This document shows positions 50,455 through 62,383 of a stretch of 64,000 nt of DNA, one piece after another (position 1 is the stretch's first letter; each line of letters starts with the position of its first letter). This DNA is from Nitrospina sp. (GTDB lineage Bacteria; Nitrospinota; Nitrospinia; Nitrospinales; VA-1), in NCBI GenBank assembly GCA_018673915.1, contig JABHBK010000067.1:123292-187291 (forward strand), given 5' to 3'. The position numbers were made by a program, and so were the translations under genes. The notes below the pieces were generated by a model. The model saw only the letters and a program-made list of their open reading frames with translations. It was not told the origin of the DNA and searched no databases.

Positions 50455-51459
50455 TTAAATTTTTACTGCTTCTATAATACTGCTCCCCTGGCTCAACTCG
50501 CTTCTCTTGAATTTTCCAAAACCAAAACTTTTCAAGAGATTTTCGGTTTCCTGAAAAGTGTAGGTTCTTCCTGTAGTTGTGAATAGCAACATTGTTAAAG
50601 AAAACATGGCCGCACCCGGTGGTTCTGTGCGATTATTTTTCAAAAATAAATCGACAAGAATGAGTCTCCCGCCCGGTTTGAGAGATTTAAAAATCTTTTT
50701 AAATATTTTTGAATTTTGAGATTTATTATAAATATGAAGAATGTTGGAATATAAAAGAGTGTCTACTTCTTCACCAAAATCAACTTTAAATATATCGCCT
50801 GCAACAAAACTAAATCTATTGAAAGTTTTTGAAGTTTTTAGGATTGTTTTTGCGACCTTAAGACTGGCGGGACGATCAATTAATATTGCTTTTGCTGATT
50901 TATCATATTTCAGGATCTCAGCAGAATAAGACCCCGGCCCTCCCCCTACGTCCACCAATCTTCCTACAGGTTTACGTGTAACAAACTTGGCCAAGGCTTT
51001 AGAATAAAATTTGCTTCTCTCATGCATTGCATAGGTAAAGGGTTCGCGAAATTCAGGGGCATCGGTCTCTTCCGATAGTGCTCTACCATTTTTCAAAACA
51101 TCAATCAAACCGGACCATTCGTCACGATTTTCTTTACGCAAAAATACTGTGCCCATTTTATATTCTGGGCTGTATTCACAAAAGTGTCTGAAACTTTCTG
51201 AAGTATTTGTGTAAATACGCCCATCACGCTTTAATGCTCCGAGGGAAACCAAAACATTGAGCAATATTTCTGCTCCTTCAGGGTGAATGCCGGCTTTTTT
51301 AGCCAAAGTCCGACTCGTCATGCCTCTTTTATTCAAGTGAGTAAATACTCGGAAATTTAAAGCGGCAATAAGGGTATTGGCTTCTTCTAACTGATCAATT
51401 TTGTTAAGAAATTGTTCATAACTTAAAGTGGCCATGTTGGTTGAATACCTCTCTATCAA
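50455..51459 (-). CDS. family-2 O-methyltransferase (winged-helix dimerisation domain plus SAM-dependent MTase)
   Basis: SAM motif LVDVGGGPGSYS and GGRLILVD. The N-terminal part resembles a dimerisation domain. Confidence 0.8.
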   Translation of the reverse strand: MIERYSTNMATLSYEQFLNKIDQLEEANTLIAALNFRVFTHLNKRGMTSRTLAKKAGIHPEGAEILLNVLVSLGALKRDGRIYTNTSESFRHFCEYSPEYKMGTVFLRKENRDEWSGLIDVLKNGRALSEETDAPEFREPFTYAMHERSKFYSKALAKFVTRKPVGRLVDVGGGPGSYSAEILKYDKSAKAILIDRPASLKVAKTILKTSKTFNRFSFVAGDIFKVDFGEEVDTLLYSNILHIYNKSQNSKIFKKIFKSLKPGGRLILVDLFLKNNRTEPPGAAMFSLTMLLFTTTGRTYTFQETENLLKSFGFGKFKRSELSQGSSIIEAVKI

Positions 51460-54306: not shown

Positions 54307-54615
54307 ATGGAGTCGCTTGTGGCACGTGTATATTTTAAAACAGATGATGTAACGCATGAAGTTGAAGATGGGACTCCTCTTATAGATTTTTGTGATGAAG
54401 TTGATGTCTCCTTATCTTTTGGTTGCACAGAAGGAACCTGTGGAGTTTGTGAGGTTACTGTAGTGGAGGGACGAGATAATGTATCCCGAATCACAGATGA
54501 GGAAAAAGATTACTTACTTCCTGAAGACCTGGAAGAAGGCATGCGCTTGGGCTGTCAGGTTAAAGTTCGTAAAGGTGAAGTTACATTAAGGTGGAAAAAA
54601 GTAAAAGCAAAGTAA
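54307..54615 (+). CDS. 2Fe-2S ferredoxin-like protein
   Basis: GCTEGTCGVCEV gives C-x4-C-x2-C, with a fourth Cys in LGCQV. Confidence 0.7.
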   Translation: MESLVARVYFKTDDVTHEVEDGTPLIDFCDEVDVSLSFGCTEGTCGVCEVTVVEGRDNVSRITDEEKDYLLPEDLEEGMRLGCQVKVRKGEVTLRWKKVKAK

Positions 54616-54617
54616 GC

Positions 54618-57200
54618 CTATAAACCACTGTCTTTAATTTCGTCCTCAACTCTTTTTATCATCCACTCTTTGATTTCCGCGGCCAGAATTTTTATTTCCT
54701 CGCTACCCTGTGCTCCCGAACAGACCTGGGTAGCCAATTCCGCAAGGCTTAAAGCTTCTCCATTGTCCCCGGATCGTTGACAGGTCAAAGAAAGATTCCA
54801 CAGGGCTTTTGCTTCCATATGTGGATCAGCGTGTTTTTTCCCCAGCGTACGGGAATGTCGAAAACAAATCATGGATTTTTCATAGCCACCTATTTCCAAG
54901 TAGGTGTTGCCAAGATTTTCCAATAAGGAGTACTCAATGGGAAGGACAGCAAATTTTCTTATCTTCGGTAAACCGCGCTCGTACTTTTCAATTGCCGCAG
55001 TGTATTCCTTCAAGCTCCTGTGATAATCGCCCATTTTCTTTAATATTAAACCCTGCCCCCTGTTATCCCCCAGTTTTCTACCGATCTCCAACGCTCCGTC
55101 GAGGCAGTCAAATGCTTTTTTATGCTTGCTTGTTTGCATATAGGTCATGGACAGGTTTTCTAAAATTCCGATTTCTCTTGTTTTGAGATTGTTCTGATGG
55201 GCCAGAGTTTTGCCTTCTTTTAAATAGTTAATGGCAGATTGGTACTTTTTAACCGTGTTACATAAACGCCCGAGATCATCGAGAACTTGAGCCTGAACCT
55301 CTTTATTTCCTAATTTTTGCGCTTTTTCCAATGATAATTTAAAGTTCAATTCAGCCCGGTCAAACACATTCCCCTTAAAACATGCCTGTGCCAGCATATT
55401 CAGTACTTCCATTTCTTTCTTGGCTTTTCCTTCCAGACGAACGAACTCAAGAACTTTACTAAAACACTCAATGGCTCTTTCATAATTACCAGTACTGAGA
55501 CAACACTGGCCTAATAAATCCATTGAAGTTTTTTCATCCCCTACATGACCGAGCTTGTTAGAGAGGCTTTGAGCCTCCTCAAGATATTCAATGGCTTTAT
55601 CATAGTGACCTAATGAGTGAAGTTGCATGCCCAGGGAGAGAAGGTTGTTTTTTTCGGCCTCCACATTTTCTGAGTCTCGGGAAGCTTCGAGAGCGGACTC
55701 ATTCCATTGAATGCATTCCTCAGTGGTATGTCTCATAGGCATTAAAACCCGAGCTTCCTTGCAAAAATCCCCACAAAGTTTAGCGATTTTGGCGTCTTCT
55801 GTACTTTTTTGAGAGGACCATTTTTGCCCAGCCTCAATGTTATACCAATCCAGGTCGAATAAGTTTAGGGCACTTTCTAAAGCATCTTCATCACTGTCAT
55901 AAAGGTCATTAGCATCTTTCAAAACATCAAAATAATAAAAAGCTAGGTTTCTATGAGTTAGAATTTTTTCTGAGGGCCTGACTTCAGTCTTTATAAGTTT
56001 GTGAATTAAATCGTGGAAGAAGTATCTTTTATTAATGCCATCGTACTCCAGAAGTTTTAGGGCGACCAAGCGTCCTAGATGGTCACCATCCCGGTCTCCA
56101 CAAATACCTGCCGCGGCTTTATCATCAAAAGACCCGGAAAATAGTGCCAGCTTTCGGAATACAGTAGCGGTTTCCTTTCTCATGTCCCTGAAAACAATAT
56201 TAAAAATTGGATCCACGTTTCGATCTATGGTTTCTTTTTTATTTTTGTCCTCCTCTAAATCAACATCGCCTTCTGGTTTTAAAAGCCGTCTCTCTTCACG
56301 GAGTTCACGAATCAAAGTCTCCACCGATAGATCAGGATTAGCTTTTATATAAGACCCGGTAAGCGCTATAGCCATTGGAGAGTATCCGCATAGCTCAATG
56401 ATCTCAGTTGCCCACCGCTTTGTGTTTGATGCCAGAAAGAAAAGAAGAAGCTCTGCCTCATCCGGAAATAATTCTTTAACCGGTTTGGAATAAGATCCTG
56501 GAATAGAAATTTTATTTTCCGATGTAAAAATAAGCAAAACCGATTTACCCGCCATGAGGCGCTTAATCTGGCTCGGTTTTGTTGCATTTTCAATCAGCAT
56601 TAACACCCTTTTACCTTTTAAGGTTGCCTCATACTGTTGCACCAGCTCAGCGGTGTCACTGGGAATTGGCTCTTTGGGGAAAAATGCACGCAGGACTTGA
56701 CCCATTGCTTTATTCACATGCATGGGCTTGTCTCCCACACCTTTTAAATCAATATAAAATTGGGCATCCGGGTATTTGGGAGCCAATTGATGAGCAAGTT
56801 CAATAGCCAGAGAAGTCTTACCAGCGCCTTTTTCTCCATACAGACATATTGGGCCACCACTTTCCCAGCTTCGGCCCATAACTTCCAATATGGCATCCTT
56901 TCTACCAAAAAATGCGGGAGTTTTATTGGGGAGTTGATTTTTTGATAATGCCGGAAAGCTGCGGGCATTGATCATTGATAACTGATTGAGCAGGCTACTC
57001 CCTACCCCGCTGGAACCCCCAGATTTAGAGGTTGAACTGGAAGATGTATTAGAACCAGAGTTGGAATCATTTTGGGAAGGGGAATCTTCTCCTGAATTCG
57101 TATCTGAGCCAATATTGTCATTAGAGTCAGGCTTCTTCAAAATGACCACAAAACCTAATATGACCAATATAAGAATAATTAAGACTACAGAAAAATCCAT
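54618..57200 (-). CDS. membrane-anchored STAND NTPase (NB-ARC-like) with C-terminal TPR array
   Basis: N-terminal TM segment (VVLIILILVILGFVVIL) and a Ser/Asn/Gly-rich linker. P-loop GEKGAGKTS, Walker-B-like RVLMLIEN and GLPL-like GYSPMAIALTG. About 400 aa of TPR repeats follow. Confidence 0.75.
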   Translation of the reverse strand: MDFSVVLIILILVILGFVVILKKPDSNDNIGSDTNSGEDSPSQNDSNSGSNTSSSSTSKSGGSSGVGSSLLNQLSMINARSFPALSKNQLPNKTPAFFGRKDAILEVMGRSWESGGPICLYGEKGAGKTSLAIELAHQLAPKYPDAQFYIDLKGVGDKPMHVNKAMGQVLRAFFPKEPIPSDTAELVQQYEATLKGKRVLMLIENATKPSQIKRLMAGKSVLLIFTSENKISIPGSYSKPVKELFPDEAELLLFFLASNTKRWATEIIELCGYSPMAIALTGSYIKANPDLSVETLIRELREERRLLKPEGDVDLEEDKNKKETIDRNVDPIFNIVFRDMRKETATVFRKLALFSGSFDDKAAAGICGDRDGDHLGRLVALKLLEYDGINKRYFFHDLIHKLIKTEVRPSEKILTHRNLAFYYFDVLKDANDLYDSDEDALESALNLFDLDWYNIEAGQKWSSQKSTEDAKIAKLCGDFCKEARVLMPMRHTTEECIQWNESALEASRDSENVEAEKNNLLSLGMQLHSLGHYDKAIEYLEEAQSLSNKLGHVGDEKTSMDLLGQCCLSTGNYERAIECFSKVLEFVRLEGKAKKEMEVLNMLAQACFKGNVFDRAELNFKLSLEKAQKLGNKEVQAQVLDDLGRLCNTVKKYQSAINYLKEGKTLAHQNNLKTREIGILENLSMTYMQTSKHKKAFDCLDGALEIGRKLGDNRGQGLILKKMGDYHRSLKEYTAAIEKYERGLPKIRKFAVLPIEYSLLENLGNTYLEIGGYEKSMICFRHSRTLGKKHADPHMEAKALWNLSLTCQRSGDNGEALSLAELATQVCSGAQGSEEIKILAAEIKEWMIKRVEDEIKDSGL

Positions 57201-57445
57201 TAGATACTCTATAAAATCTTTATTAAGAATTGAAAACTACACGCCATCTCATAAAATTTACGCCAAATACGGGGCATGTTAAATTGTTTCATAAGTATAC
57301 TATGTAATGATTGGTATTATCCCATTTTTATACGAGAATTCAATGTTTTGTGTCCTCTTTCTGGATCCTACCCCTCGTTTGCGGGATGTCAAAATGATGC
57401 ATAGTGAAAGTATTATCTATTCTAGATAAAAACTTAGTATCTGGC

Positions 57446-57475
57446 TTGACTTACCCTTTAAAATTAAAGTATAGT
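57446..57475 (+). promoter_or_regulatory. sigma70-type promoter candidate of the pyr operon
   Basis: TTGACT (57446-57451), an 18-nt spacer, then TATAGT (57470-57475). Confidence 0.5.
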
Positions 57476-57496
57476 TCTAGAAATATAACTCTTTAA

Positions 57497-57524
57497 AGTA
57501 GTCCTGTGAGGCTATCAAGGGGAA
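57497..57524 (+). promoter_or_regulatory. PyrR-binding loop (anti-antiterminator) of the pyr leader
   Basis: AGUCCUGUGAGGCUA closely matches the PyrR binding-loop consensus ARUCCAGAGAGGCU. It is flanked by pairing segments CUUUAAAGUAG and CUAUCAAGGGG. Confidence 0.65.
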
Positions 57525-57554
57525 ATCATGTTAGTTTTAAAAAATAATTTATTA

Positions 57555-57597
57555 CCTCCTGTTTAGGCCTGCAAACGCCTTTTGGAGGTTTTTTTTT
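57555..57597 (+). terminator. pyr leader attenuator (intrinsic terminator)
   Basis: CCTCC (57555-57559) pairs with GGAGG (57584-57588), with inner AGGC/GCCT pairing. A run of 9 T (57589-57597) follows, 12 nt before the pyrR ATG. Confidence 0.7.
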
Positions 57598-57609
57598 GCC
57601 TAATTCATC

Positions 57610-58146: not shown

Positions 58147-59081
58147 TGCCACTGTCGACCAAAAGTATTCTGGGTATGAAGGAATTAACAAAACAGGATA
58201 TTCAACAAATTCTGGATACCGCTGATTCCCTTAAAGAAATATCTACGCGAGATATTAAAAAAGTTCCCACCCTTAGAGGCAAAACAATCATTAACCTTTT
58301 TTTTGAACCCAGTACTCGCACTAGAACATCATTTGAAATAGCGGGAAAACGTATGAGTGCTGATGTGATAAATATATCCGGTTCTACGAGTAGTACTGCA
58401 AAAGGGGAGAACTTAATTGATACCGCCCGCAATTTAGAAGCCATGAACCCAGATATATTAGTGGTTCGACACCATTGCTCTGGGGCTCCTGAACTTCTGG
58501 CTCAACATGTGAGCAGTCCAATTATCAATGCTGGAGATGGATCGCACGAACATCCCAGCCAGGCATTGTTGGATCTGCTGACAATTCGCGACCACAAAGG
58601 ATATTTAGAAGGACTCACAGTTACAATCGTGGGTGACATCAATCATAGTAGAGTGGCCCGTTCAAACATTAGGGCGATGCAAACCATGGGAATGAAAGTT
58701 CGAGTTGTCGGCCCTCCCACACTTATTCCCGTTGGAATAGAACGTTTAGGTGTAGAGGTCAGTCACAACCTTGCTGAAGGAATTAAAGATGCTGATGTGA
58801 TTATGGTCCTTCGTATCCAGTTGGAGAGGCAAAAGGAAGGGCTTCTATCAAGTCTGCGAGAATATTCAAATTATTTTTGCCTTACTTCAGAGACTTTAAC
58901 TCAAGCACGAGATGATGTTCTCATCATTCATCCAGGGCCCGTAAACAGAGGTGTTGAAATTGCCCTAGATGTTATGGAAAGTCCTCGCTCTCTTATATTG
59001 AATCAGGTTACCAACGGAGTTGCCATCAGGATGGCTCTTTTTTATTTATTACTTGGGGAGAATCATGCAAACCCTAATTAA
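58146..59081 (+). CDS. pyrB: aspartate carbamoyltransferase catalytic subunit
   Basis: FFEPSTRTRTSFE, HPSQALLD and HPGP motifs. Its ATG overlaps the pyrR TGA (TGATG). Confidence 0.95.
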   Translation: MPLSTKSILGMKELTKQDIQQILDTADSLKEISTRDIKKVPTLRGKTIINLFFEPSTRTRTSFEIAGKRMSADVINISGSTSSTAKGENLIDTARNLEAMNPDILVVRHHCSGAPELLAQHVSSPIINAGDGSHEHPSQALLDLLTIRDHKGYLEGLTVTIVGDINHSRVARSNIRAMQTMGMKVRVVGPPTLIPVGIERLGVEVSHNLAEGIKDADVIMVLRIQLERQKEGLLSSLREYSNYFCLTSETLTQARDDVLIIHPGPVNRGVEIALDVMESPRSLILNQVTNGVAIRMALFYLLLGENHANPN

Positions 59082-60360
59082 AAATGGTCAAGTTATTGAC
59101 CCTGCTAATCAAGTCGATGGCTCTTTTGATATCCTGATCTCTAACGGGAAGATAGAAGCCATTGAGCCTCAGGGGAAAATATCTGGTAGTAAAATTAAAA
59201 ATCTTCCGGTTATAGATGCGAAGGATTGCGTTGTGGCGCCTGGTTTTTGTGATATGCATGTGCATTTCAGGGAACCAGGCCATGAGTATAAAGAGACTAT
59301 AGAAACCGGCAGTGCTTCCGCAGCGGCCGGCGGATTTTCCACCGTGGCAGTCATGCCAAACACCTCGCCGGTCAATGATAATCGCTCGGTTACAGAATTG
59401 ATTTTCTCACAAGCAAAAAAAACCAGCTTAGTAAATATTTTCCCCATTGGAGCTATCAGCAAAGGCTTAAAAGGTGAAACTTTATCAGATATGGGTGAAT
59501 TAAAAGAAGCGGGTTGTATCGGTTATTCCGATGATGGAAAACCCGTTATGGATAGTGAGTTGATGCGAAGAGCATTTGAATACAGCCGAATGTTTGACCT
59601 GCCATGCATTCAGCATAGCGAAATTCTAGATCTAACCCGTGACGGTTGCATGAATGAAGGCCTCGTCTCTACAGAACTGGGCTTAAAGGGAATGCCTGTC
59701 GAAGCAGAAGATATTATGGTTTTCAGAGATATCTGTTTGCTGCAAAAAACGGGTGGGCGTCTTCATGTGGCGCATATAAGTAGTGGCGGAGCTGTAGAAC
59801 TGGTTCGTCAAGCCAAAGCTAAAGGTCTACCTGTAACTTGCGAAGTGGCCCCGCATCATTTTACTCTTACGGAAGAAGCCTGTCGAAAATATGATACGAA
59901 TTCTAAGATGAGTCCTCCCCTGAGAACTCATGAAGATTTGGAATTGATCAAAGAAGGATTGAGGGATGGAACAATTGATATCATTGCTACGGACCATGCT
60001 CCTCATGATCTTGCCGACAAACAGGTTGAATTCAGCAAGGCCTGCTTTGGAATTGTTGGCCTGGAAACAGCACTCCCCTTAACTCTAAAAATGGTAGATG
60101 AAAAGGTCATTACTTTGCAAAAAGCGGTGGATCTTCTCACTCATCAACCCTGTCGCATCTTCAATTTGGATAAAGGCACTCTGGGAGTTGGTAAAGATGC
60201 GGATATTGTTATATTTAATCCTAAAACGAAATACACAATAGAGCCTGAAAAATTTAAGTCACGTAGTAAAAATTCTCCTTACAAAGGTTGGAAAGTCAGA
60301 GGAAAAATTCTCCATACCCTGGTAGCTGGAAAGACCGTATATTCCTCCTATAACGAATAA
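59065..60360 (+). CDS. pyrC: dihydroorotase
   Basis: [15 protein letters not shown] and IATDHAPH motifs. Start moved to the ATG at 59065 ([13 protein letters not shown]), preceded by GGGGAG. Confidence 0.92.
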
Positions 60361-60383: not shown

Positions 60384-61508
60384 ATGAAAGCATATTTAGC
60401 TCTGTCCGATGGGAAAGTCTTTGAGGGCGATCACTTTGGGGCCGAAGGTGAAGTCGATGCAGAAATTGTTTTTAATACCAGTATGTCTGGTTATCAGGAA
60501 GTGATTACAGACCCCTCCTATTGTGGACAAATGGTGCTAATGACGTATCCTCTTATAGGTAACTATGGAATTAATCCGCAAGATTTTGAGTCTGACCGCC
60601 CTCACCTTTCCGGCTTCATCATAAAAGAATTAAGTGGCATTTCCAGTAATTGGCGATCAAGAGGGACACTGGAAGATTTTTTAAAAAAGTATGGGATCAT
60701 TGGAATTCAAGGAGTAGATACCAGAGCCTTGACTCGTCATATTCGAGAGAAGGGTGCTCAACAGGCCGTTTTGTCCACAATGACCAAGGATCACGGCGAA
60801 TTGATTCGTAAAGCACAAAATTCTTCTGGCCTTGAAGGGAGAGATCTTGTAAAAAATGTCACTTGCCAACTCCCCTATGACTGGGATGAAGGTGAATGGG
60901 AGATTAGGAATGGAGAAACAAATCTTAAATCCGCTGTAGACAAAAAGTATTTCGTTGTAGCCTATGACTTTGGAGTTAAAAGAAATATATTGAGGATGCT
61001 TGCAGGTGCCGGTTGCAGTGTTCGGGTTGTTCCCGCATCCACTCCGGCCGAAGAAGTTCTTGCCCTCAATCCGGATGGAGTGTTCTTATCGAATGGCCCT
61101 GGCGATCCAGAGGGTGTTCCATACGCAATCAAAAACATTAAATTACTTTTGGGCAAAGTCCCCATTTTCGGTATTTGTCTAGGCCATCAACTGCTAAATT
61201 TGGCTTTAAATGGGAAAACCTTTAAGCTTAGATTTGGACATCATGGTGGAAATCAACCCGTAATGGATATCCCCACAGGCAAAGTTGAAATCACGTCTCA
61301 AAATCATGGTTTTGCTGTCGATCAGAATTCGGTAGGGTCCTCCATAAATGTGACATCCATAAATTTAAATGATCAAACAGTTGAAGGGATCTCCCATAAA
61401 GACTGGCCGATTTATTCAGTGCAATATCATCCTGAAGCATCACCCGGCCCTCATGATTCCAGTCACCTCTTCCATCATTTCACAAGCCTTATGAAAGCAG
61501 GAGTTTGA
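60384..61508 (+). CDS. carA: carbamoyl-phosphate synthase small (glutaminase) subunit
   Basis: [11 protein letters not shown] start, the GATase triad context GICLGHQLL, and HGFAV...[11 protein letters not shown]. Confidence 0.95.
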
Positions 61509-62383
61509 TGCTCAAGGATTCATTAGATTTACTCTTTGAGTATGTTGCCAAGCATATTCCTTCGGAGCAAATTATGCTGGCAAAGAAGGAATATCAAAAG
61601 ACTACTGGTGATATCTATGAGGATGACAAATCTTACAATACAAGAATGGCTCTGTTTTTAGAATGGTATCTGTTAGACCAATATGAACCGGGTTCTCAGC
61701 AAACGATTCTGGAAAACATTATTGAAGAAAACCCATCGGCTTGGACTCAAGATAGTCTGGATGCCTATAAGGACATTTCCAATAATACTTTGGGCATATT
61801 CGAAATCAGGAAAGTTAGAGACAATTCGGTAACAGTGCTGGATTTATTCACGGACGAAAAATATCTGATTGAAGAGCAGGATTCAAAACTCGCATTCAGA
61901 AAGAATGACCTTTTTCAGGGGCGTATTTTCCCACACCTCGGGAAATATTATTTTTCTGGGTACTTTTGCTTTCATCCCAAAAAAACGCATCGGTATATAC
62001 AAAGTAAAACAAAAGTTTTCTATTTAATTCAAAGAGCATGGAAAAAAGAACTTTATAGGCTTGAAAAATTTTTATTGAAAACCCAAAAATCATATCTAAA
62101 GAATTCAAAGTCGATAGAAAAAATTAAAACCAAAATTGGAAACACAGACATAAGCGCAAAATTGGAACATTTGAACACAAAACTTTTAGACTTAGTTGAG
62201 CTTAAAACCGGAATTGAAACCAGCCTTCAACTTACTGAAAAAGAAATCAGCAGTTTACAACTTGAAAAAATAAAAATAGAAGGTCGAGGGCTAACTTCTG
62301 AAGTGATTAACAAGCTAGCCTATATGAATTTAAAGTGGGAACGTTCAAGACAGATTGACATAGAAGATATTTACAAAGACTAA
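61508..62383 (+). CDS. hypothetical protein (291 aa) with coiled-coil C-terminal half, embedded between carA and carB
   Basis: Its ATG at 61508 overlaps the carA TGA (TGATG). Its TAA at 62381-62383 overlaps the carB ATG (TAATG). No recognisable domain. The C-terminal part is K/E/L-rich with a heptad-like pattern. Confidence 0.6.

What the first reader, a model, noticed from the sequence alone, without database searches (positions are those of the whole stretch)
54618..57200. Membrane-tethered NB-ARC/TPR STAND ATPase as a stand-alone gene
The 860-aa product has a single N-terminal TM helix followed by KK, which implies a cytoplasmic body. Next comes a Ser/Asn/Gly-rich low-complexity linker of about 45 aa. 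An NB-ARC-like module follows, with P-loop GEKGAGKTS, RVLMLIEN in place of the hhhhDD Walker B motif, and GYSPMAIALTG at the GLPL position. It ends with about 400 aa of TPR repeats.

STAND NTPases with C-terminal repeat sensors include the bacterial antiviral Avs/NLR-like proteins and the MalT/AfsR-type regulators. Those normally carry a recognisable effector or DNA-binding domain at the N-terminus. Here the only N-terminal element is the membrane anchor and linker. Ligand-induced oligomerisation would therefore cluster TM helices. That is a plausible membrane-perturbing abortive-infection output, or alternatively a scaffold function. The neighbours (a ferredoxin, cbpA and the pyr operon) are unrelated, so it acts as a single-gene unit.
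Basis: partly seen in the sequence, partly recalled or inferred. Interest (0 to 1): 0.55.

Follow-up and report, generated by a model that had tools for sequence, protein, structure and literature searches.

The report
Membrane-anchored STAND-TPR protein of Nitrospinaceae
This is a real 860-residue, membrane-anchored NLR-like (STAND plus TPR) protein that marine nitrite-oxidising Nitrospinaceae inherit vertically at one fixed chromosomal spot and have repeatedly lost by decay, which fits a conditionally useful membrane-tethered sensor or scaffold better than a mobile anti-phage gene.

Summary
ORF 54618-57200(-) encodes a TM helix, a 46-aa Ser/Asn/Gly tether, an AfsR-like NB-ARC-type NOD, a helical arm, 8 TPRs and a capping helix (AF2 pLDDT 84).

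New findings:
- All 37 related loci keep the same context (pyrR operon <> gene >< ferredoxin-cbpA). GC content is native, and there are no phage, plasmid or PADLOC links.
- Intact copies are under strong purifying selection (dN/dS 0.066; TPR 0.054), like pyrB and carA.
- At least 8 lineages have inactivated the gene independently (nonsense mutations, deletions, an IS insertion), while neighbouring genes stay intact.
- The protein belongs to a TM-anchored NOD-TPR clade whose named members are all Nitrospinota. This clade has lost the sensor-I arginine (2/14 versus 107/112 in other relatives). The orthogroup also carries Glu at the Walker B Asp position.
- Five mutually divergent sister-group members sit next to glyS, four of them between glyS and glyQ.

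Best guess: a conditionally dispensable, membrane-tethered, hydrolysis-poor STAND switch or scaffold that binds a conserved protein ligand. The function has not been tested.

The parts
54618..57200 (-). Complete gene, 860 codons plus stop (54618-54620)
   Evidence: ORF list. 100%-identical cluster P0001, named 'tetratricopeptide repeat protein [Nitrospina sp.]'. Orthologs share the same start.
57138..57194 (-). N-terminal transmembrane anchor, residues 3-21 (FSVVLIILILVILGFVVIL); predicted topology N-out/C-in
   Evidence: KD mean 3.52. N-flank is 'MD', with 2-5 K/R in the 15 aa after the helix in all orthologs. AF2 helix 2-21. G16 is invariant.
56997..57137 (-). Disordered Ser/Asn/Gly-rich tether, residues 22-68
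   Evidence: Composition. pLDDT <50. Sequence is variable but length is kept. dN/dS 0.35-0.6, compared with 0.04-0.08 for the body.
56901..56996 (-). Family-specific conserved pre-NOD segment, residues 69-100 (SLLNQLSMINARSFPALSKNQLP..FFGR)
   Evidence: Near-invariant in 17 orthologs and shared with P0078. dN = 0 in the closest pair. Helix 70-78 is predicted at low confidence.
56466..56900 (-). Nucleotide-binding domain, residues 101-245. Walker A G122-T129 (nt 56814-56837). Walker B VLMLIEN 199-205 with Glu204 (nt 56586-56606). Sensor-I position T226-S227-E228, with no Arg (nt 56517-56525).
   Evidence: Motif tables. AfsR alignment. Strand/helix pattern of the model. Fold match to ADP-bound Apaf-1.
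56283..56465 (-). HD1/ARC1 helical domain, residues 246-306, with the GLPL-type motif CGYSPMA (271-277)
   Evidence: C271, G272, S274, P275 and A277 are invariant.
55989..56216 (-). Winged-helix domain, residues 329-404, with the MHD-type motif FHD (395-397; His396 invariant). It is preceded by an acidic low-confidence loop (310-321).
   Evidence: Aligned to AfsR 'RFHDL'.
55665..55988 (-). Helical arm/spine, residues 405-512, linking the NOD to the TPR
   Evidence: Long helices 409-436, 438-464, 470-482 and 493-509. Lowest dN/dS of the protein versus L001 (0.032). Corresponds to the AfsR 'arm' (PMC10936776).
54714..55664 (-). Eight TPR repeats (16 helices), residues 513-829
   Evidence: Pfam TPR_12 E=2.6e-35. 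Model helices. Foldseek LGN/Pins TPR TM-score (target) 0.59-0.77. dN/dS 0.054.
54621..54713 (-). Capping helix and conserved C-terminal tail, residues 830-860 (…EIKEWMIKRVEDEIKDSGL; terminal SGL invariant)
   Evidence: Tail shared with P0078 (IKESGL), while only the xxW part is shared with wider relatives. Helix 834-855.
57201..57609 (.). Divergent intergenic region shared with pyrR (GC 0.32). It holds the gene's presumed promoter; the best sigma-70-like match on the minus strand is 57392-57365.
   Evidence: Consensus scan only, not above the shuffled expectation. The target-proximal half (57201-57437), together with codons 1-258, is deleted in the L037/L044 pseudogene lineage.

Best explanation
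The gene encodes a single-pass, N-out/C-in inner-membrane-anchored STAND protein. A hydrophobic anchor and a ~46-aa flexible tether hold an AfsR-like NOD-arm-TPR body at the cytoplasmic face of the membrane.

It is an ancestral, vertically inherited gene of marine Nitrospinaceae. It belongs to a clade of TM-anchored NOD-TPR proteins whose named members are all Nitrospinota.

This clade keeps the nucleotide-binding elements (P-loop, GxP, MHD His) but has lost the sensor-I arginine. In this orthogroup the Walker B Asp is replaced by Glu.

The most likely mechanism (inferred) has four steps:
1. The NOD holds nucleotide and hydrolyses it slowly or not at all.
2. The LGN-like TPR superhelix binds a conserved cellular protein or peptide.
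3. Ligand binding releases arm/TPR autoinhibition and lets the NODs self-associate.
4. The output is recruitment, clustering or sequestration of the bound partner at the membrane, not an enzymatic or DNA-binding effector.

The function is advantageous (strong purifying selection) but conditionally dispensable, because many lineages have inactivated the gene in situ.

What is shown: the architecture, homology, motif states, synteny, selection and pseudogenisation. What is inferred: the topology, nucleotide behaviour, ligand class, oligomerisation and output.
For: - Architecture and fold.
- No effector or DNA-binding domain: the 84 residues before the NOD contain only the anchor, the tether and a short conserved segment.
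- Motif states: canonical relatives have K at Walker A in 111/112, D at Walker B in 108/112 and R at sensor I in 107/112. The TM clade has the sensor-I R in only 2/14. The orthogroup has Glu at Walker B in 29 of the 32 orthogroup sequences aligned at that motif (Asp in 2), and Walker A K->R in P0017 and P0019.
- Vertical inheritance: synteny is identical in 13 genome loci, L021 and 23 metagenome loci, and target identity scales with the neighbours' identity. GC is 0.418 against 0.408 for the window.
- Selection: dN/dS is 0.066 overall, 0.054 for the TPR, 0.039 for the NBD and 0 for the pre-NOD segment, compared with 0.071 for pyrB and 0.060 for carA. This argues for a conserved ligand rather than an arms race.
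- Sister clade: five mutually <50%-identical members are all divergent from glyS, four of them with glyQ on the other side.
- No defence signal.
- Published context: 391 of 589 STAND clades are non-defence and are interspersed with defence clades (PMC13581612).
- The TPR is most like the peptide-binding scaffold TPRs of LGN/Pins.
Against: - No experiment and no identified partner or ligand exists.
- No conserved neighbour points to a pathway. The type A and type B contexts share no flanking genes.
- Recurrent loss of function (at least 8 events) is also what a costly immune receptor would show.
- The sensor-I and Walker B changes are interpreted by analogy with other STAND/AAA+ proteins. ATP binding and hydrolysis were not measured, and Glu could still coordinate Mg2+.
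- Self-association is assumed from family behaviour.
- The NJ tree that defines the TM clade is a crude distance tree.
- Taxonomy is known for only some clade members.
Confidence: 0.45

Rival explanations
1. Antiviral NLR/Avs-like sensor. The TPR recognises a conserved phage protein, the NOD oligomerises, and bundling of the N-terminal TM helices damages the membrane. This would be resistosome-like abortive infection, here fixed in the chromosome instead of in a mobile island.
For: - The layout is STAND + TPR sensor with no other output module.
- 36 of 130 close NOD relatives also carry N-terminal TM helices, so TM-NOD fusion is a recurrent design.
- TM modules occur in bacterial NACHT defence proteins (bioRxiv 10.1101/2022.07.19.500537).
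- Recurrent gene-specific pseudogenisation fits a costly, conditionally useful gene.
- Avs sensors that target conserved phage proteins can themselves be conserved (PMC13581612).
Against: - No PADLOC model matches apart from generic TPR.
- No relatives occur on phages, viral contigs or plasmids.
- The housekeeping context is identical in 37/37 loci, and the sister clade also has a fixed context.
- Composition is native.
- TPR dN/dS is 0.054.
- The anchor is entirely apolar and joined by a 46-aa disordered tether, so NOD geometry would be poorly transmitted to the helices (inference).
- The sensor-I Arg, normally needed for the ATP-dependent switch, is lost.
Confidence: 0.2
2. Static pseudo-ATPase scaffold. 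The NOD is a degenerate structural module that no longer switches. The protein is simply a constitutive membrane-tethered TPR platform for assembling or localising a complex.
For: - The sensor-I Arg is absent.
- Walker B Asp is replaced by Glu.
- Walker A Lys->Arg is tolerated in two otherwise intact, conserved orthologs.
- There is no effector domain.
Against: - G122, G127, T/S129, N205, P275 and H396 are invariant or nearly so.
- The NBD has the second-lowest dN/dS of the regions measured in the closest pair (0.039). This indicates that nucleotide binding is still under selection.
- The arm and WHD elements that mediate autoinhibition in PH0952 and AfsR are all retained.
Confidence: 0.15
3. 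Exported or periplasmic TPR protein. Residues 1-21 would be a cleavable signal peptide rather than an anchor.
For: An N-terminal hydrophobic segment is present.
Against: - There is no positively charged n-region (the N-flank is 'MD').
- The hydrophobic core is 19 residues long.
- K/R residues lie on the C-terminal side in all orthologs.
- A P-loop NOD homologous to cytoplasmic AfsR and Apaf-1 needs cytoplasmic nucleotide.
Confidence: 0.03
4. Non-functional relic. The window copy would be an evolutionary remnant on its way to loss.
For: About one third of sampled copies are pseudogenes.
Against: - The window copy is full length with no lesions.
- dN/dS is 0.066 against its closest relative at dS 0.58, equal to pyrB and carA.
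Confidence: 0.03

Closest known systems
AfsR and other 'large SARP' regulators of Streptomyces (SARP-NOD-arm-TPR; PDB 8k60/8jke)
   Same: This is the closest solved relative by sequence (E=2e-27, residues 85-402). It has the same order NOD-arm-TPR, an hhhhDN-type Walker B, the CG(x)xPLA motif and the FHD motif. In AfsR, ATP binding relieves autoinhibition by the C-terminal domains (PMC10936776).
   Different: - There is no SARP/BTAD DNA-binding domain. A TM anchor and tether take its place.
- The sensor-I Arg is lost and Walker B has Glu.
- The NCBIfam AfsR score is 154 against a cut-off of 1430.
- The lineage is Nitrospinota, not Actinomycetota.
PH0952 of Pyrococcus horikoshii, a STAND with a TPR sensor (PDB 6mfv; Lisa et al. 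2019, PMC6468293, cited)
   Same: This is the best whole-chain fold match (Foldseek E=9e-16). It has a NOD + arm + TPR architecture with double autoinhibition by the arm and the sensor.
   Different: - PH0952 is soluble and belongs to the MalT-like group (from knowledge).
- Identity is 13%.
- It has no membrane anchor.
Avs (antiviral STAND) proteins, e.g. Avs3 (PDB 8dgc)
   Same: Both are STAND NTPases with a TPR-like C-terminal sensor. Both are single-gene units.
   Different: - Avs proteins carry N-terminal nuclease, protease, SIR2 or similar effectors, and are patchy and associated with defence islands.
- Here there is no PADLOC hit, and the fold match is only generic (TM 0.19).
- The context is fixed and housekeeping, and the sensor is under strong purifying selection.
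Apaf-1 / plant CC-NLR resistosomes (NB-ARC clade)
   Same: - The NBD-HD1-WHD fold is closest to ADP-bound Apaf-1 (1z6t, E=5e-11).
- The idea that oligomerisation brings N-terminal helices together at a membrane mirrors the ZAR1/NRC4 funnels (from knowledge; NRC4 9cc8 appears).
   Different: - The Pfam NB-ARC score is 16.2, below the 23.5 cut-off.
- The N-terminal helix is a constitutive apolar anchor on a disordered tether, not an amphipathic helix released from a CC bundle.
- The sensor-I Arg (Apaf-1 R265, from knowledge) is absent.
Membrane-tethered TPR scaffolds of eukaryotes (LGN/Pins; NPHP3, a lipid-anchored STAND-TPR protein)
   Same: - The TPR domain is most similar in sequence and fold to LGN/Pins (E=4.5e-14; TM-score (target) up to 0.77).
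- NPHP3 is cited as a non-immune STAND in PMC13581612. It is membrane-anchored by myristoylation (from knowledge).
   Different: This is analogy only. The Pfam NPHP3_N match is insignificant (E=0.13), and no common descent of the whole architecture is implied.
HaaT (cyclophane RiPP TPR protein, NF041717) and FxSxx-COOH system TPR protein (NF040586)
   Same: These are the best NCBIfam matches over the NOD (1e-55 and 8.5e-24).
   Different: The scores (189 and 84 bits) are far below the cut-offs (1125 and 300). No RiPP or FxSxx genes lie in the neighbourhood.

Membership tests
STAND NTPases, AP-ATPase/NB-ARC-type NOD | Walker A GxxxxGK[TS] | tested here: met
   G122-x4-G127-K128-T129. G122 and G127 are invariant. 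K is replaced by R in 2 of the 31 orthogroup sequences aligned at Walker A.
STAND NTPases, AP-ATPase/NB-ARC-type NOD | Walker B hhhhD (Mg2+-coordinating Asp) | tested here: inconclusive
   An acidic residue is kept, but it is Glu204 in the window protein and in 29 of the 32 orthogroup sequences aligned at Walker B (Asp in only 2). Asp is present in 108/112 other close relatives. The effect on Mg2+/ATP was not measured.
STAND NTPases, AP-ATPase/NB-ARC-type NOD | Sensor-I arginine (T-[ST]-R / RNBS-B) | tested here: not met
   Position 228 is Glu and is variable among orthologs. R is present in 107/112 other relatives but in only 2/14 TM-clade representatives.
STAND NTPases, AP-ATPase/NB-ARC-type NOD | GxP/GLPL motif in HD1 and MHD-type His in the winged helix | tested here: met
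   CGYSPMA (P275 invariant) and FHD (H396 invariant).
STAND NTPases, AP-ATPase/NB-ARC-type NOD | NBD-HD1-WHD three-domain fold | tested here: met
   AF2 model pLDDT 84. Foldseek: 6mfv 9e-16, Apaf-1 1z6t 5e-11, CED-4, NRC4, MalT.
STAND NTPases, AP-ATPase/NB-ARC-type NOD | Pfam NB-ARC (PF00931) at the gathering threshold | tested here: not met
   16.2 bits against a cut-off of 23.5, E=0.0064, profile positions 6-207 of 248. More distant relatives (P0036-P0050) do carry PF00931.
STAND NTPases, AP-ATPase/NB-ARC-type NOD | Nucleotide-dependent switching and oligomerisation | not testable with these tools
   This needs purified protein.
AfsR / large SARP regulators | N-terminal SARP (OmpR-type wHTH + BTAD) DNA-binding domain; NCBIfam NF053617 cut-off | tested here: not met
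   There is no PF00486 or PF03704 match. The score is 154.5 bits against a cut-off of 1430.
Avs / antiviral STAND defence proteins | Match to a defence-system HMM | tested here: not met
   PADLOC returns only generic TPR (1e-13), mad8 (1e-4, P-loop region) and STAND_TPR (0.02).
Avs / antiviral STAND defence proteins | N-terminal enzymatic or other recognised effector domain | tested here: not met
   Residues 1-84 are the anchor, the tether and a short motif. No significant Pfam family matches.
Avs / antiviral STAND defence proteins | Patchy distribution, defence-island or mobile-element context | tested here: not met
   37/37 loci share the same housekeeping synteny. There are no phage, IMG/VR or plasmid relatives. 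Functional presence is nonetheless patchy, through in-situ decay.
Avs / antiviral STAND defence proteins | Phage-triggered growth arrest or protection | not testable with these tools
   This needs experiments.
MalT/LAL regulators | C-terminal LuxR-type HTH | tested here: not met
   There is no PF00196 match. The C-terminus is a TPR followed by a capping helix.
HaaT (NF041717) / FxSxx-COOH TPR (NF040586) | Curated NCBIfam cut-off and the cognate gene cluster | tested here: not met
   189 against 1125 bits, and 84 against 300 bits. The neighbours are the pyr operon, ferredoxin and cbpA.
TPR repeat proteins | Pfam TPR models above the gathering threshold | tested here: met
   TPR_12 scores 120.9 bits (cut-off 30.1); TPR_2, TPR_8 and TPR_1 are also above threshold. 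The model shows 8 repeats.

The most novel reading that the evidence does not exclude
This would be a chromosomally fixed, vertically inherited NLR-like immune receptor whose sole output module is its own N-terminal transmembrane helix.

In this reading, binding of a conserved virus protein to the TPR drives NOD oligomerisation. That bundles the anchors and collapses the membrane, giving a minimal, resistosome-like abortive-infection device. The repeated pseudogenisation would record the cost of carrying it.
Probability: 0.15. Interest if true: 0.8.

Novelty: new variant of a known kind. Interest (0 to 1): 0.45.

Why it matters
STAND/NLR-type proteins are usually read as either immune receptors or transcription factors. 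This family is neither by domain content. It has no effector and no DNA-binding domain, only a membrane anchor, and its ATPase has lost a key catalytic sensor residue.

The gene is inherited vertically in Nitrospinaceae, a group of marine nitrite oxidisers. It is kept under housekeeping-grade purifying selection, yet it has been discarded independently many times.

Working out its ligand would show what a minimal membrane-tethered STAND does. It would also give a test case for how often an NLR-like architecture actually means immunity. A recent census classed 391 of 589 STAND clades as non-defence (PMC13581612). The natural knock-outs provide ready-made comparisons in environmental data.

Tried and rejected
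- The first whole-protein MAFFT alignment of 77 hits timed out. It was replaced by HMM-guided alignment of the NOD.
- A second word-index homolog search with the NOD alone added little beyond short or split gene calls. The same search with the sister protein P0085 gave no organism names.
- The AlphaFold-DB fold library was not available.
- One literature query was malformed. The others found no paper on this family or on membrane-anchored NB-ARC-TPR proteins in Nitrospina.
- I looked for shared flanking genes between the window and the sister-clade or P0078 loci, to decide between orthology with relocation and paralogy. None were shared, so this stays unresolved.
- Rfam found no RNA element near the gene. 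The only hit in the window is a tRNA at 361-433.
- The promoter/terminator scan gave counts within about 1.6 SD of the shuffled mean.
- No paralog of the NOD exists in the window.
- The apparent stops in pyrC were traced to my over-long TTG ORF call and dismissed.
- L038 (a 1-nt frameshift) and L011 (a junction at a contig end) were not counted as secure inactivations.
- A signal-peptide reading and a relic reading were considered and rejected (see the rival explanations).


Full report
**1. Observation.** The ORF at 54618-57200 on the minus strand is real, starts with ATG and encodes 860 residues. An identical protein is on record as 'tetratricopeptide repeat protein [Nitrospina sp.]'.
- Residues 3-21 form a very hydrophobic segment (Kyte-Doolittle mean 3.52). 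Before it lies only 'MD', and K/R-containing sequence follows it.
- Residues 23-68 are a 46-aa stretch with 17 Ser, 7 Gly and 6 Asn.
- Pfam finds strong TPR matches, but only sub-threshold P-loop families: AAA_22 at 26.8 bits (cut-off 27) and NB-ARC at 16.2 bits (cut-off 23.5).
- Homology of residues 85-404 to the NOD of AfsR-type proteins is nonetheless unambiguous: PDB AfsR E=2e-27, NCBIfam HaaT 1e-55 and AfsR 3e-45, all far below the equivalog cut-offs.
- The neighbours are a 2Fe-2S ferredoxin, a DnaJ/CbpA-type protein, PyrR, PyrB and PyrC.

**2. Structure.** An AlphaFold2 model built on 47 sequences has mean pLDDT 84. Its elements are:
- helix 2-21;
- a disordered stretch at 21-80, with a weak helix at 70-78;
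- an alpha/beta NBD (about 100-245);
- HD1 (246-306);
- an acidic loop;
- a winged helix (329-404);
- a helical arm (405-512);
- sixteen helices forming eight TPRs (513-829);
- a capping helix (834-855).

Foldseek against the PDB gives the archaeal STAND-TPR protein PH0952 as best hit (6mfv, 9e-16). ADP-bound Apaf-1 follows (1z6t, 5e-11), then LGN/Pins TPR domains (TM-score (target) 0.59-0.77), then CED-4, NRC4, MalT and, only weakly, Avs3. This is therefore a bona fide STAND protein of the AP-ATPase/NB-ARC kind, laid out as NOD-arm-TPR exactly as in AfsR (PMC10936776). A membrane anchor stands where AfsR has its DNA-binding domain.

**3. The NOD is unusual.** I aligned the NOD of the orthologs and of distant relatives to one HMM.
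- In 112 close non-clade relatives, Walker A Lys is present in 111, Walker B Asp in 108 and the sensor-I Arg (T-S-R) in 107.
- In the Nitrospinaceae orthogroup, the Walker B position is Glu in 29 of the 32 sequences aligned there (Asp in two).
- The sensor-I position is variable, with Arg in one ortholog only.
- Two otherwise intact orthologs have Arg in place of the Walker A Lys.
- The P-loop glycines, N205, P275 of the GxP motif and H396 of the MHD-type motif are invariant.

By analogy with other STAND/AAA+ proteins (established knowledge), this pattern means that nucleotide binding is retained while gamma-phosphate sensing and hydrolysis are weakened. That is inference and was not measured.

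**4. Phyletic pattern.** All 34 full-length relatives at 57-100% identity come from Nitrospina, Nitrospinaceae or Nitrospinota MAGs. Identity then drops to about 30%.
- An exhaustive phmmer search with residues 60-500 found 25,966 cluster representatives at E<=1e-3. The NOD therefore belongs to a very large superfamily.
- In a rough NJ tree, the orthogroup sits with P0078, which has the same anchor, the same pre-NOD motif and the same ...IKESGL C-terminus.
- These sit inside an 18-member clade that is almost uniformly 'single TM, 65-92 residues before the NOD, 700-870 aa'.
- The clade members that carry organism names are all Nitrospinota.
- Loss of the sensor-I Arg is a trait of this whole clade (2/14 retain it).
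- More broadly, 36 of 130 close NOD relatives have one or two TM helices in front of the NOD. Membrane tethering is thus common in this NB-ARC-TPR subfamily, though apparently undescribed.

**5. Context and inheritance.** Gene order is unk-carA-pyrC-pyrB-pyrR <> target >< fdx-cbpA, then a TPR lipoprotein, a thioredoxin-like gene and a methyltransferase. This order holds in 13 loci from GTDB species genomes, in L021 and in 23 metagenome contigs, wherever flanks are present.
- It includes the 58% identity clade, and target identity scales with that of the neighbours.
- Gene GC (0.418) matches the window (0.408).
- There are no relatives in 50,697 phage records or in IMG/VR.
- Plasmid hits are only Streptomyces SARP regulators at 25-29% identity.
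- PADLOC gives nothing beyond generic TPR.
- Five mutually divergent members of the sister group are also in a fixed housekeeping position of their own: transcribed divergently from glyS, and in four of the five with glyQ on the other side.
- P0078 is in a third context.

I could not decide whether the pyrR-type and glyS-type genes are paralogs or one relocated ortholog.

**6. Selection.** I compared the window with its closest relative (L010/L011, dS 0.58, unsaturated).
- dN/dS is 0.066 for the whole protein, 0.039 for the NBD, 0.036 for HD1+WHD, 0.054 for the TPR 'sensor' and 0 for the pre-NOD segment.
- The tether is at 0.35.
- The neighbours pyrB and carA are at 0.071 and 0.060.

The sensor domain therefore shows no sign of an arms race.

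**7. Unexpected: recurrent decay.** Thirteen of 37 syntenic copies carry lesions.
- L007: a nonsense codon at the Walker A Lys.
- L021: two nonsense codons plus a frameshift.
- L031/L035: TGA at residue 135.
- The L037/L040/L044 lineage: a ~1 kb deletion of the promoter region and codons 1-258, plus several TAA codons.
- L012/L013: TAA at residue 687, and in L012 a ~2.2 kb deletion.
- L046 and L047: multiple stops.
- In addition, L032 (a 1.44-Mb contig) has the gene truncated at about codon 750 by an rve-family transposase gene, with recG downstream instead of fdx.

That makes at least eight independent inactivations, spread over all subclades. As a control, cbpA, fdx, pyrR, pyrB, carA and three other neighbours on the same contigs have no stop or frameshift in about 40,000 aligned residues. 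The apparent pyrC stops are an artefact of an over-long ORF call, and the only other real lesion is in the methyltransferase gene of L007. The gene is thus ancestral and well maintained where intact, but dispensable.

**8. Interpretation.** The abortive-infection idea meets its own refutation criterion (vertical inheritance, stable context) and lacks any defence signal.
- A recent census found that only 198 of 589 STAND clades are defence-associated, and that these are interspersed with non-defence clades (PMC13581612).
- The anchor is wholly apolar, with only G16 invariant, and hangs on a 46-aa disordered tether. That suits a tether better than a pore-forming element (inference).

I therefore favour a membrane-tethered, nucleotide-bound but hydrolysis-poor STAND switch or scaffold. 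Its LGN-like TPR would bind a conserved cellular protein or peptide, and its output would be recruitment or sequestration at the membrane. The function would be conditionally dispensable (confidence 0.45).

The immune reading keeps about 0.2, helped by the recurrent losses. A static pseudo-ATPase scaffold gets about 0.15. The signal-peptide and relic readings are rejected.

**9. Novelty and value.** The protein is a member of the STAND class but of no characterised family. It fails the curated cut-offs for AfsR, HaaT, FxSxx-TPR and Pfam NB-ARC. It lacks the effector and DNA-binding domains that define Avs, SARP and MalT proteins, and it lacks the sensor-I Arg. It is best called a new variant of a known kind. 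Interest is moderate (0.45): the architecture, the degenerate active site and the combination of strong constraint with repeated natural knock-outs are distinctive, but the function is untested.

Noticed in passing
L032 6272-7282 (contig FLOH01000003.1, 1.44 Mb); also L006, whose contig ends at the same codon: An rve-family (IS481/IS3-like) transposase gene sits directly after codon ~750 of the ortholog. recG follows instead of fdx-cbpA. This is an IS-mediated truncation and rearrangement of the locus.
   Followed up: partly
L012 (PAWD01000002.1, binned as 'Thaumarchaeota archaeon SAT137'): The gene content and order of this contig are those of Nitrospinaceae (pyrR, target remnant, fdx, cbpA and so on, at 74-93% identity to the window). 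It is almost certainly mis-binned into an archaeal MAG.
   Followed up: partly
L016 16669-18777; L019 13521-15617; L023 14407-16503: A conserved 698-702-aa protein combines a DnaJ domain, a STAND-like P-loop module (AAA_16/AAA_22) and a peptidoglycan-binding domain (PG_binding_1). It lies 3-4 kb from the glyS-type TM-STAND-TPR gene in three Nitrospinota genomes. This architecture is unusual.
   Followed up: no
L014 8001-11579 (protein P0036, 1192 aa): One of the two nearest outgroup proteins found in the first homolog search is a double NTPase: an N-terminal TM helix, a KAP-family P-loop NTPase, then an NB-ARC-type NOD and TPRs. It sits next to a GH25 lysozyme gene.
   Followed up: no
window 61505-62383 (+): A 292-aa protein of unknown function overlaps the end of carA by 4 nt. 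In L021 it sits between carA and carB and matches DUF7986. It is conserved at this position in all loci, at 51-83% identity.
   Followed up: partly
window 57201-57609: The AT-rich (GC 0.32) divergent intergenic region upstream of pyrR gives no Rfam match at gathering score, including no PyrR-binding element. The pyrR-proximal part is conserved at about 80% in L012 and L037, while the target-proximal part is not alignable or is deleted.
   Followed up: partly
window 59020-60360 (+): The mechanical pyrC ORF (TTG at 59020) is probably about 29 codons too long. Other genomes have stop codons at the positions equivalent to residues 3 or 12.
   Followed up: partly
L007 (JAYNIA010000009.1), O-methyltransferase ortholog of window 50455-51459: In this MAG the O-methyltransferase gene also carries a stop and a frameshift, in addition to the nonsense codon at the target's Walker A Lys.
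   Followed up: no
window 54615-54618: The ferredoxin gene and the target converge with only 2 nt between their stop codons (fdx ends at 54615, the target's stop occupies 54618-54620). No terminator-like hairpin was found between them.
   Followed up: partly
proteins P0017 and P0019 (orthologs, 73% identity): A sub-lineage has Arg in place of the Walker A Lys (GSGRTS) in otherwise intact, conserved full-length proteins.
   Followed up: partly
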